A stretch of 63,564 nucleotides of DNA, filler included, from Collodictyon triciliatum (Eukaryota): assembly GCA_043381765.1 (NCBI GenBank). It is 9 parts of 9 records of this genome, joined end to end, with 100 filler letters (N's around TTAATTAATTAA, not from the genome) between each part and the next. Parts side by side here need not be neighbours in the genome. Positions count along the whole stretch, not along the records: positions 32,191 to 39,385 come from JBHJMP010004017.1; 8 more parts are not named here. One strand, written 5' to 3'. The notes under the pieces are model-generated. The model was not told the origin of the DNA and made no database searches. It worked only from the letters and a program-made list of their open reading frames with translations. The translations under genes were made by a program, and so were the position numbers. Positions 33,649 to 38,157 of this stretch are shown here, in pieces. Each line of letters starts with the position of its first letter. Position 1 is the first letter of the stretch.

Positions 33649-36600
33649 TTAATCAAGATAAGGGTCAAATTTGTCTTTTCTATTTAGACTTCGCATCTTT
33701 ATCAAATTTCTCTTCAATTTATTATCCCGAAATAGTGGAATAACAAAACCATTTAATGTAAATAACAGAAGCCACAGTGAATTCAAAATAATAATTAGTC
33801 CAGTAATCCACATTTTTGCACCAAGAAAGCTTGATAGGAGGGCCAAGAACAATGACACAAAAATAATGTACAAACTTGATAGTTCCATTCGATTTTCTAT
33901 TTGATGCTTATAGGGTTTGTACTCTTTTTGCATCCAAATAGATCCCTGCATGATTTTGGATGAGATAATATCGAAAAAATTAACGTGTAATGAGCAAACC
34001 TGAATAATGATGACAAGCAGGAGGAAGAAAACTGATGGACTTGTGTACGGAATCACACTTATTGTGAAAGAGAATGCAATGCGGCGGGACATGATGATTA
34101 ATTCCCAGTACCTACAACTCTGGACATATAAAATTATCTTATTAAAGGTTTGAAATCCGTGATATCTGCACCAAGCAATTTCATACCTCCTTATAAGGCA
34201 GGTAAAGAAATCCATATCGTGCTCCCGGTTCATAACCAGGCCTATCAAACATAACTCTTACTTTCCACCAGGCGAAAATCGGCAAACCAACCAGAAAAAT
34301 AACAAAAACTGGAACCGACATTCCAATTAATTTGATGTATTCCTTGGAAGCCGGACTGCATTGAATCCAAGGGGCGAAGTTCAAATACCATATATTTTCT
34401 CCATCCTCGTAAATTGTACACCCAAATACACCAAATACCTCTCTTGCAACTGAGTAGTATATAAAAAACAACATGTTCAAAGTGATGAAGACAGCCTGGA
34501 TTAATGTTAATTAGTTTTTTGATTATAAGATGTATTAAAGTATTCTTTTACACAGTTTTACCTTATTTTGAGTTCGCCCATATCCATAACGAAAGAAAAC
34601 GGAACCTATGATAATAAACCCGGGTATTCTTGAAAAACTCAACATTAAGTATTCAAAAGTATCATCAACTCCGTGTATGCAAGAAATATTTGGATATTGA
34701 ATAGAACCAATTGATGATACAATATTGATAAAACTGTTAGATTCATCTGAGTGAATAAGGCCTGATGAAACAATAGACAGAGTTTGCATATGGAACATTG
34801 TTATCCTCAGCTTTGCTAAAATAAGAAATATTTTTTGATTCAATTTAAAGTAATATGACGAAATATTATTGAATTATATATAAAAAATCGATTATTTTAT
34901 GAATAATTAATCACAAAAAACCTGAATTTGATGTCTCAGAGTAATAAAGATATGAAATTAGAATGAGAAGTCCAATAGAGCCAAGAATTAAAGTAGAATT
35001 AACAGTATTACTATCGCACTTCACGCATGACCTCCCTTGACTTCCATATCCATCCTTGCATTTAGAACATGCATGACCCTCATATCCATCCTCACAGTAA
35101 TGAATTATGACAAGAGTTGAATTTGATTTGGGATTTTTATCAGGAATAAAAGTTTGGCATGACTCTGGACGTGGACAAAGGTGAATAGAATTGACTTGAT
35201 TTACATTTGGGGAAGCATGACAGTTCTTTAACTTTACTCCGTCTGGGCAATCACACTCTCTTGGGCATTGAATGCAATTGTCACCAAACCCAAAGTATCC
35301 CGGTAAGCATTTGCAAAATTCATAGTCGTAGTAATTTGGATTTAGATCAACCCTCAGTCTCATCAGTCCAAGATCAGCCATAATTGATGGGCATATGTAA
35401 ATCTTTGATTCATCCTCCAAGTTGAATGGTGATGTATAATTCAAAAAATCGGGGAGAAAATTTGAACTTCCATGATTCATTAATGTGTTCTTTAATCCTA
35501 GATACTCCAGTTTAGAAAATTGATTATATGATTCAGGAATACTACCCAGAATGGGATTTCCTGAAAGTTCAAGGTAGTTCCATTTTAATGAATTAGTGAG
35601 CTTTGCAAGACTGGTCATGCGATTATTCTTCAAGCTCAAAAATTTCACATTAAGTAAGAAATCAAAGATCCACCAGTTCAAAGCTCCATGAAGCATGTTA
35701 TCATCAAGCATAAGATTTTCATAATAGTAATCAGTGTAATTCGAAAAAGGTACTATAAAGTCCCCAATATCACCAGAAAATAAATTATTTCTTAGATTTA
35801 TCGACACCAAATTTCGAATATTCCAAAATCGTTTGGGCATAACCCCAGAAAAGTAATTGTTAGACAAAGTTAACATCCTCAATTGTGAAAAATTCTCGAA
35901 GCACTTGGGCACTGAACTGTTCATATTATTTCTGGATAGATCTAGATATTGAATGGATGGAATTTTCCATATTCTAGGAATAGATCCGGTTACGTAGTTC
36001 TCTGCAATATCGAATTTTGTAAGCTTTGGTAAATCAAATACTGGTAGAGAACCACTGATTTTGTTTCTGAAAAGTACGAGCTCCTTCATTTGAGAGCAAA
36101 GTTCAAATTTTGGAATAATTCCTTCGATTTGGTTATCAAAAGCAGAGAAGTATTCCAAATTGCTCATATTGTTGAAATTAGGAACTGTCCCTATTTAAGA
36201 TATCTTCATGTTAAAATAACAACAAAAAAAATTAAAAATTTAGGACAACCTGTCAATAGATTTACGTCCAAATAAATCTTTTGAGCATTCCAAATCCTCG
36301 AAAAGTCAGGTACGGTGCCTACAGTACTATTTCAGTTAAATTGAAAGAGTATTTCCTTTTAAAAATAAAATTACCACTTAATCTGTTATTGTGAAGGTAA
36401 ATGCAAATTGCATTTTGCATGCTGTGAAAATCTGGTATTGTGCCTGTCAATTTAAATCAAAAATATCTCAATGTTAACACAAGATAGGCAAATTTTGTTA
36501 CCATTCATTATTTAATGCCGTTTACAATTATTTTTGTTGAACCATCACCTGTAAGATGATTATTTCTCAGTGATATGTATCTGACGTTTTTTAAGTATCC

Positions 36601-38157
36601 AAAATTTGGTGTAGTTCCTATTTTATTTAGTTTGTATTTACTCATCTAATTTTCATTTTAATCAAAAAATTAAATATTACCATCAAACTTATTGCTGTAA
36701 ATGTATATCATTTCGATTATAGGAAAATCTCTAAAATCGTGGATTGTGCCTGTTTTAAACAAATTAATAAATAATATCTAACCATATTTGTAATTTTAAT
36801 AGAGTATGTAACCCAAAGCAATATCTGTGTTATTTTCTATTATGTACTTTTTTTATTACCATGGAAATTATTGCTTGACAAATCAAGTACTTTAATATTT
36901 GGAATCATTCCAAAATGTGGAATAGAACCTGTGTTGATCGTAAAATACTCACAAATTTTCAAAAATTCATAAAATATCCCATAAATACTCTATAAATCAA
37001 TCACATTAATTTCAGAATACACATACCGATCTATCATCATTTATTCAAATTAAAATTTTAATTACCTTCCATGTTATTGTGGTCAATTATTATTTCTCTT
37101 ATTTTTGGTATGCTACTAAAATCCGGGATAGTTCCTATAATTAATATAAATATTGTAAAATGGAATGGAAAAATAGATTTCATGTAGTTCAATATTTTGA
37201 TTGGGTTGGGGAAGAAAAATATTAACAATTAGGTCATACCCTTAATTCGGTTGCTTGATAAGTTTATACTTTCGATATTAATGATGTTTTGAAAATTAAT
37301 AATATTTCCTGTTATCTGATTCTCAAAAAAATCCAGATGCAAAATACTCGGAGAACTCAAATCAGAAAAAACGCCGTAAATTGAATTTGAGGATAAACTC
37401 AGTTTTCTCAAGTATGGAAAGGATTCGAACATTGGAAGAACTTCAGAAATATCACCATTTATATTGTTTCCAGGCATTAATATATCGAGGACTGGGCATG
37501 TGTTGTTCTATTATCAAGTAAATTTAGAAAAAATCCGAGATAAATGAATAATTTATACTTACAATATATTCATATTGTAGGCAGTTTGCGTGACATGCTA
37601 TTCCATACCAATTGCATATAGGTGTTTTGATTTCCTTCCAGCCATAATTTTCAAACCAATATTCACCATTCAATAAGTCGTAAATTTGAACTAAGATATC
37701 ATATTGACCTGTATTGTACTCATCTCTATTCTCTTTGCTGTCATTATTTTTACTTTCTCTTGTAATAAACTCAGTATTGGACAATTTTTCCGTGTTTTTA
37801 TAGCTATAATAATGAACCTGATCCAGATAACCGCTTTCGTTATTACGATTTTCATGACTCACTATATTTGGATTTGGAGATGAATGACTGTCTGGTAGGC
37901 TTGGAAGTGAAAAATCATTCTCCCTAAATCTACTCATGTCAGAGGGGCAGGCATCATCATATAGTCTCATCAATATATGGAACGAATCTTCCATTTTCAT
38001 CGACATTAATTCTTCTCTTGAGTACCGGCATCTTAATTATGTAGATAAAAGTGTTAGACTATATGAGCTAATATCGATAAATAAAATTATACCTTTCAAT
38101 AGACGATACTAGAATAGGAAAAATCAGCAGTGCGAAACAAACTGTTTGATATAGCAT
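33649..38157 (-). CDS. LRR / Cys-rich / multi-TM (7TM-like) receptor
   Basis: Signal-peptide exon 38157-38093; LRRNT cap (NGEYWFENYGW...ICNWYGIAC); plant-type LRRs L.L..N.L.G.IP; CEDGYEGHACSKCKDGY; TM region with KLRITMFHMQ, YGFLYLPYK, YWELIIMSRR, PYKHQIENRME. Confidence 0.9.

What the first reader, a model, noticed from the sequence alone, without database searches (positions are those of the whole stretch)
36250..37134. Six consecutive 69-nt, same-phase exons, each encoding exactly one LRR
Seen: exons 37134-37066, 36928-36860, 36749-36681, 36617-36549, 36443-36375 and 36318-36250 are all 69 nt, each split in the Gly codon (phase 1-1). Framework residues are conserved while exposed positions differ (REIIIDHN, KVLDLSSN, EMIYIYSN, RYISLRNN, ICIYLHNN, QKIYLDVN). 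Flanking LRRs lie in large exons. Any subset can be skipped or swapped in frame (64 include/skip combinations). Established: one-repeat exons occur in plant ERECTA-type RLKs and in Ectocarpus ROCO genes, where exon shuffling is proposed. Inference: a modular diversification system for a protist surface receptor.
Basis: partly seen in the sequence, partly recalled or inferred. Interest (0 to 1): 0.72.

Follow-up and report, generated by a model that had tools for sequence, protein, structure and literature searches.

The report
Shuffled one-repeat exons in protist receptors
This gene is an old member of a large family of protist cell-surface proteins whose binding region is built from interchangeable 69-base exons; in younger family members these exons have been copied, swapped and selected for diversity in the DNA, much as in brown algae and ciliates, while mixing by alternative splicing remains unshown.

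Summary
Observation confirmed: six 69-nt phase-1 exons, one LRR each. They lie in a 14-exon gene for a signal-peptide/LRR/Cys-rich/multi-pass membrane protein, one of about 130 paralogues. In 81 loci, 714 of 723 cassette exons are 69 nt, 3 to about 18 per gene. In 15 young paralogues the introns are copies of one intron, exon order is scrambled, and exposed beta-strand codons have dN/dS about 1.65-1.8, against 0-0.3 in the constant exon. Fused exons and ectodomain swaps record DNA-level recombination. Eleven paralogues have intronless LRR arrays outside the cassette clade. The window's own array is old, with no sign of current shuffling. Exon skipping is untested. The design is known (brown-algal ROCO, Tetrahymena); the receptor type and exon size differ. 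The scan noted such arrays before on other contigs of this genome.

The parts
38093..38157 (-). Exon 1, 65 nt, signal peptide
   Evidence: ATG plus hydrophobic residues 2-20, GT donor; same exon type in paralogues
37563..38031 (-). Exon 2, 469 nt, N-terminal region and first half of the LRR N-cap
   Evidence: no Pfam hit
37240..37507 (-). Exon 3, 268 nt, short form; its last repeat ends at a cassette-type donor, probably a fusion of exon 3 with a cassette exon (inferred)
   Evidence: short form in 3 of 69 loci scored, long in 64, very short in 2; junction clear in L035 and L077
37066..37134 (-). Cassette exon 1, 69 nt, one LRR
36860..36928 (-). Cassette exon 2, 69 nt, one LRR
36681..36749 (-). 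Cassette exon 3, 69 nt, one LRR
36549..36617 (-). Cassette exon 4, 69 nt, one LRR
36375..36443 (-). Cassette exon 5, 69 nt, one LRR
36250..36318 (-). Cassette exon 6, 69 nt, one LRR
34922..36190 (-). Constant exon, 1269 nt: about eight or nine LRRs, Cys-rich stalk (weak DUF7630 hit, E 0.047) and first membrane helix
   Evidence: strong purifying selection in young paralogues
34562..34815 (-). Membrane-module exon, 254 nt
34187..34495 (-). Membrane-module exon, 309 nt; most conserved part, 134 matches genome-wide
34000..34119 (-). Membrane-module exon, 120 nt
33649..33945 (-). Last exon, 297 nt, last membrane helices, short tail and stop

Best explanation
The gene encodes a 1154-residue surface protein: signal peptide, about 18 plant-type LRRs, a Cys-rich stalk and a multi-pass membrane module resembling PF06011. 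One lineage of an older LRR-membrane family came to carry an intron at the Gly codon between repeats, making a 69-nt exon plus a ~56-nt intron a frame-neutral unit (architecture shown; direction of change inferred). Unequal crossing-over and gene conversion within and between about 100 dispersed paralogues then copy, delete and patch these units, and selection favours new residues on the concave beta-strand face, while a fixed first cassette, a fixed last cassette and a constant exon frame the variable part (shown for the 15 young genes). All exons are probably spliced in constitutively, so diversity is stored as many genes, not many isoforms (inferred). The likely job is recognising varied external partners such as prey, pathogens or symbionts and signalling through the membrane module (inferred). 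The window's copy is an old product of this process whose array shows no recent duplication.
For: Cassette number 3 to about 18 in 68 complete, gap-free loci; 4 to about 18 among genes 90-94% identical in the constant exon. Young cassette introns homologous within and between genes (0.79 and 0.78 vs 0.65 shuffled). No positional signal (same vs different rank 0.790 vs 0.792). Colinearity Z 1.1 against 3.5-15.6 in nine simulations of vertical inheritance. Nearest unit lies in the same gene for 29 of 93 (7 expected), so both local copying and exchange. Linkage decays along the unit (rho -0.185, permutation p 0.001). Exon 3 fused to a cassette exon and cassette intron in L035 and L077. L091, L092, L099 carry a young-type ectodomain (mostly 0.8-0.9 identity) on a distant membrane module (36-40% amino acid, measured for L091 and L092) with one shared switch point. 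Exposed-codon dN/dS 1.65 (1.36-1.95 over 200 pairings); likelihood 1.74-1.83, 2dL 20-23.5; framework 0.18; same positions in constant-exon LRRs 0-0.32. dS is not raised at exposed codons (0.27 vs 0.28), so no local hypermutation. No stop in 714 exons.
Against: No direct sign of shuffling or selection in the window's own six exons: introns 0.50 vs 0.50 shuffled, dN/dS 0.58 at saturated dS. The older pair L085/L105 is colinear 15 of 15 with 0 exposed replacements among 10, so older arrays are fixed. Selection tests using only the exposed codons were weak (GY omega 1.68, 2dL about 4.2; MG 2dL about 2.1), recombination inflates tree-based tests (own knowledge), pairs are not independent, and the next-older ring of genes gives 0.99. 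Monophyly of the intronless genes is not rejected (p-AU 0.36), so intron gain is not proven. Ligand, expression and membrane-module function are untested.
Confidence: 0.72

Rival explanations
1. Combinatorial alternative splicing: cassette exons are skipped to give many receptors per gene.
For: All cassettes are symmetric phase 1-1. Brown-algal ROCO genes with one-LRR exons do show splice variants (PMC11378527, sections 11 and 15 read). About 13 cassette donors are GC, which may be weaker.
Against: Introns are short (median 66 nt; 354 of 723 are 65 nt or less), the setting for intron definition, and intron retention is the common event in unicellular eukaryotes (PMC5602073, passages; that review ties intron definition to short GC-rich introns, and these are AT-rich). 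Dead cassettes are rare: 0 stops in 714 called exons (the caller penalises stops) and 3 frameshifted ones in 41 long gaps, similar to indels in constant exon 3.
Confidence: 0.12
2. Neutral repeat turnover: exon-intron units duplicate because short homologous repeats recombine, and exposed residues drift under relaxed constraint, with no adaptive diversification.
For: Weak within-class tests; omega near 1 in the older ring; intronless paralogues also vary from about 10 to 28 LRRs without any cassette. An earlier scan note (e1-7246638) saw no selection in one gene.
Against: Omega above 1 in pairwise and likelihood tests with shared dS, with the interval above 1 within 4 of 6 single genes tested; identical positions in the adjacent constant exon are strongly conserved.
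Confidence: 0.12
3. Programmed somatic or clonal rearrangement from a cassette reservoir, as in lamprey VLRs.
For: Variable cassettes between fixed ends; sub-exon patchwork; one five-exon array with no host gene seen nearby (L112).
Against: The genes are complete reading frames, not empty acceptors. L112 is bounded by assembly gaps on both sides. The most similar units in different young genes differ by 7% or more, which fits evolutionary time. Old arrays are frozen.
Confidence: 0.05

Closest known systems
Brown-algal LRR-ROCO genes with type I LRR exons (PMC3341825, passages; PMC11378527, abstract and sections 11 and 15)
   Same: One plant-type LRR per exon starting at the Gly; variable exon number; scrambled order between paralogues; positive selection on the concave face; proposed recognition role.
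   Different: 72-nt exons and a cytoplasmic ROC-COR protein there; 69-nt exons in a signal-peptide, multi-pass membrane protein here. Splice variants and non-coding exons in introns are reported there; here splicing is untested and dead exons are rare.
Tetrahymena 90-bp LRR exon arrays (PMC6564038, passages)
   Same: Exact exon length, one intron phase, clonal exon-intron units in young genes, age classes, variable number by ectopic recombination, exons closer to those of other genes.
   Different: 90 bp, phase 2, tens of thousands of exons, REP retrotransposon association; here 69 nt, phase 1, on the order of a thousand exons, with a constant stalk and membrane module. No retroelement test was made.
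Plant ERECTA-type LRR receptor kinases; glycoprotein-hormone receptors
   Same: Surface LRR receptors with one repeat per exon (ERECTA recalled, no call; hormone receptors mentioned in PMC11378527 section 15).
   Different: Those arrays are fixed in number and order (recalled). No kinase here; no GPCR among the listed fold matches.
Unnamed protist LRR/Cys-rich/PF06011-like membrane proteins
   Same: Same architecture in Luapelamoeba hula; related stalk or membrane module in Nematostelium, Flabellula, Gefionella, Andalucia, Clastostelium; 1372 representatives at E 0.001.
   Different: Exon structure of those relatives is unknown (the named ones are protein or transcript records). I found no description of the family.
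Lamprey variable lymphocyte receptors (recalled; mentioned in PMC3341825 passages)
   Same: Variable LRR cassettes between fixed ends, sub-repeat patchwork.
   Different: No evidence of somatic assembly; genes are complete and cassettes are spliced exons.

Membership tests
Brown-algal LRR-ROCO exon arrays | One LRR per symmetric exon | tested here: met
   (69 nt, not 72)
Brown-algal LRR-ROCO exon arrays | ROC-COR GTPase domain, cytoplasmic protein | tested here: not met
   Full gene model has signal peptide and membrane helices, no ROC-COR Pfam hit in seven exons scanned
Brown-algal LRR-ROCO exon arrays | Shuffled order and variable number among paralogues | tested here: met
   (young subfamily); not in the old pair L085/L105
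Brown-algal LRR-ROCO exon arrays | Positive selection on concave-face residues | tested here: met
   for the young subfamily; weaker; saturated in the window gene
Brown-algal LRR-ROCO exon arrays | Alternative splicing of LRR exons | not testable with these tools
   no RNA holder listed
Tetrahymena 90-bp LRR exon genes | Exactly 90-bp exons with phase 2 introns | tested here: not met
   69 nt, phase 1
Tetrahymena 90-bp LRR exon genes | Clonal exon-intron units and ectopic recombination | tested here: met
Tetrahymena 90-bp LRR exon genes | Adjacent LINE-like retrotransposons | not tested
   no search made
Plant LRR receptor kinases (ERECTA type) | Single membrane helix followed by a kinase | tested here: not met
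   at least six membrane helices, short tail, no kinase hit
LRR-containing GPCRs | GPCR seven-helix fold | tested here: inconclusive
   Model of a 27%-identical relative (pLDDT 81); fold searches gave no clear match to any family
PF06011 (fungal Pkd2/FLC-like TRP family) | Pfam match above the curated cut-off | tested here: inconclusive
   No hit on single window exons; relative P0001 27.7 vs cut-off 28.5; one further relative passes at 30.8; top Atlas feature hit carries it in 13% of members
PF06011 (fungal Pkd2/FLC-like TRP family) | Ion permeability | not testable with these tools
   needs reconstitution, as for fission-yeast Pkd2 (PMC9727806, abstract start and passages)
Lamprey VLR-type system | Incomplete germline gene plus flanking donor cassettes | tested here: not met
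   complete reading frames; the one orphan array is bounded by gaps
Lamprey VLR-type system | Somatic assembly | not testable with these tools
   needs clonal or single-cell long reads

The most novel reading that the evidence does not exclude
A single-celled eukaryote keeps an actively diversifying, immune-like receptor repertoire: hypervariable LRR cassettes, reassorted fast enough to differ between clones (by conversion or by splicing), are mounted on a constant stalk and a Pkd2-like membrane module, so that binding a microbe opens a calcium route directly. Whole ectodomains are swapped between membrane-module classes to rewire the output.
Probability: 0.1. Interest if true: 0.85.

Novelty: new variant of a known kind. 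Interest (0 to 1): 0.5.

Why it matters
It adds another, apparently independent protist lineage to brown algae and Tetrahymena in using one-repeat exons to diversify LRR proteins, here on a cell-surface multi-pass protein of an undescribed but widespread family. The genome holds unusually clean internal controls: intronless paralogues, frozen old arrays, a young churning subfamily, and a constant LRR exon beside the variable ones. That makes it a good system for testing whether symmetric introns speed up receptor evolution and what a free-living protist must recognise. The mechanism itself is not new.

Tried and rejected
RNA evidence: no RNA holder listed, so no reads were laid. A last homologue search for spliced transcripts returned only two genomic predictions 99% identical to loci already held. 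Single-sequence fold of the constant exon failed (pLDDT 31). Fold searches with the relative's module gave no Foldseek match at E 0.001 and best Z 7.0 over 90 residues, rmsd 3.4; this neither shows nor excludes a known fold. An apparent frameshift at 38031 is an off-frame ATG; exon 1 resolves it. Assembly chimerism as the source of scrambling was judged unlikely: longest exact match between young cassette regions 66 nt, median 33. Targeted hypermutation rejected: dS is not raised at exposed codons. The neighbour-adjacency count (2 of 78) is biased by a star-like gene tree, so I relied on the simulation-controlled test. The first single pairing gave omega 1.91; the median of 200 pairings, 1.65, is the figure to use. 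L091/L092/L099 are not an independent replicate of selection, as they share the young ectodomain. A bootstrap tree timed out. IQ-TREE class fits for framework and convex codons stayed at their starting values and were not used. The orphan array L112 was not accepted as a donor reservoir (gaps on both sides). Literature searches found no description of this family or of 69-nt LRR exon arrays; subscription papers and supplements were not seen. The organism was not identified; a Diphylleia hint in earlier notes was not tested.

Full report
Observation. Shuffled sequence gave no LRR-scoring unit in 2000 trials, against six observed. The window is a string of contigs; this gene fills one 7.2-kb contig.

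The gene. A 14-exon model from 38157 to 33649 on the minus strand reads without stops for 1154 residues: signal peptide, N-terminal region, about 18 LRRs, Cys-rich stalk, at least six membrane helices by hydropathy and a short tail. Splice sites were set by comparison with paralogues, not by RNA. Pfam finds LRRs and a weak DUF7630 hit. The nearest full-length relative, from Luapelamoeba hula, has the same layout at 27% identity and a just-sub-threshold PF06011 hit. Its stalk and membrane module find 1372 representatives; 32 of the longer ones were scanned and most carry LRRs; named ones come from amoebozoans, a malawimonad and a jakobid (group names from my own knowledge). A model of that module is confident (pLDDT 81, about nine long helices) but has no clear solved match. 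So the protein belongs to a widespread family of LRR membrane proteins that I found no description of.

The family in this genome. The constant exon finds 98 matches among 98 scored of 759 candidates. The most conserved membrane exon finds 134 matches from 137 candidates. A cassette-start pattern occurs 711 times against 3 for its control, which scales to about 133 genes. I called cassettes in 81 loci, the window and 80 of the other 97 matches: 723 exons, 714 of them 69 nt, 707 distinct peptides, median intron 66 nt. The 68 complete, gap-free loci have 3 to 19 called cassettes; the 19 includes a mis-called exon-3 tail, and the caller missed single exons in a few genes, so 3 to about 18. Of 25 further, more distant loci, 11 carry their LRRs (about 10 to 28) in one or two long reading frames with no cassette exon, 10 carry cassettes and 4 were unresolved. 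On a tree of the stalk and membrane modules the cassette genes form one clade (84 rows; SH-aLRT 99 with 17 representatives). The intronless genes are paraphyletic in the best tree, but their monophyly is not rejected (p-AU 0.36), so a single intron gain is likely but not shown.

How the arrays change. Fifteen young genes, about 90-93% identical to their nearest neighbour in the constant exon, carry 4 to about 18 cassettes. Their cassette introns are recognisably one ~56-nt sequence, within and between genes (0.79 and 0.78 against 0.65 shuffled), so the unit of change is exon plus intron. First and last cassettes are position-specific types; the middle ones have no positional identity. Colinearity between genes is at chance (Z 1.1), whereas simulated vertical inheritance at equal divergence gives Z 3.5-15.6. 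Nearest units are in the same gene for 29 of 93 (7 expected), and linkage decays along the unit (rho -0.185, p 0.001), pointing to local duplication plus exchange and sub-exon patching. Two kinds of fossil confirm DNA-level recombination. In L035 and L077 exon 3 runs directly into a cassette-type exon and cassette-type intron, having lost two constant repeats; the window gene has the same short exon 3. L091, L092 and L099 have a young-type ectodomain on a distant membrane module with one shared switch point.

Selection. In the young middle exons dN/dS at exposed beta-strand codons (13, 14, 16, 18, 19) is 1.65 (1.36-1.95 over 200 pairings) against 0.18 at framework codons, with no rise in dS. 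A fixed-sites likelihood model with shared dS gives 1.74-1.83, 2dL 20-23.5. The same positions in the eight constant-exon LRRs score 0-0.32, and first and last cassettes 0.95 and 0.54. Against this: tests on the exposed codons alone are weak, recombination biases tree-based tests, the next-older genes give 0.99, and 2 of 6 single genes have intervals that include 1.

The window's own array is old. Its exons are 43-59% identical to each other, 62-71% to their best match elsewhere, its introns are no more alike than shuffled ones and dS is saturated. Its closest paralogue among those aligned is 67% identical in the constant exon. A pair of old genes, L085 and L105, keeps 15 of 15 exons in order with no exposed-site replacement. 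Arrays therefore churn while young and freeze once diverged, as expected if exchange needs homology (inference).

Skipping. No RNA run was listed, so it is untested. Short introns, and the rule that retention dominates in unicellular eukaryotes (PMC5602073, passages), argue against it. So does the rarity of dead cassettes: no stops in 714 called exons and three frameshifted exons in 41 long gaps, matched by indels in constant exon 3. Brown-algal ROCO genes do show splice variants, so it is not excluded.

Comparison and verdict. The system works like brown-algal ROCO arrays (PMC3341825, PMC11378527) and Tetrahymena 90-bp arrays (PMC6564038) but is a member of neither: it has no ROC-COR domain, a different exon size, and sits on a surface multi-pass protein. 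Searches found no account of this family. Earlier notes of this scan saw the same arrays on other contigs and mostly judged them old or unselected; that agrees with what I find for old genes, but the family-wide tests show active turnover and selection in a young subfamily. New variant of a known kind; interest 0.5.

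Noticed in passing
L091, L092, L099 (G000 C2684, C2149, C1632): Chimeric paralogues: young-type LRR ectodomain joined, about 240 codons into the constant exon, to a distant stalk and membrane module.
   Followed up: yes
L111, L113, L123-L128, L130, L133, L134: Eleven family members with intronless LRR arrays of about 10-28 repeats, 22 or 23 residues long, outside the cassette clade.
   Followed up: partly
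L112:3284-3890: Five cassette exons with no host gene nearby, bounded on both sides by simple repeats and assembly gaps.
   Followed up: partly
L030, L038, L104 (cassette), L057 (exon 3), L049 (first cassette): Small indels that break one exon; pseudogenes or assembly errors.
   Followed up: partly
L057, L037, L050, L099 and others: About 13 cassette introns use GC donors; L057 and L037 share a near-identical GC-donor unit, third from last in both.
   Followed up: partly
L108: An old gene with one exon pair 96% identical although their introns are unrelated, suggesting exon-only conversion.
   Followed up: no
window 46900-49908 +: Intronless 1002-residue LRR frame of a different, non-plant repeat type, on its own contig.
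   Followed up: no
window 8721-10235 +: Intronless WD40 array with very similar repeats, cut by the contig end.
   Followed up: no
window 39795-42353 -: Elongation factor 2 in one long frame at 56% GC, far above the surrounding 30-40%; codon bias or another organism's contig.
   Followed up: no
window 45087-46202 -; 21071-22893 +; 26348-30326 +; 18490-18966 +: A tyrosine-kinase-like kinase, a WD40 gene, an ABC-2 transporter and an alcohol dehydrogenase fragment.
   Followed up: no
window, repeated 44-N / 12-base / 44-N spacers: The window is a concatenation of about ten contigs, so neighbours across spacers are not linked.
   Followed up: yes
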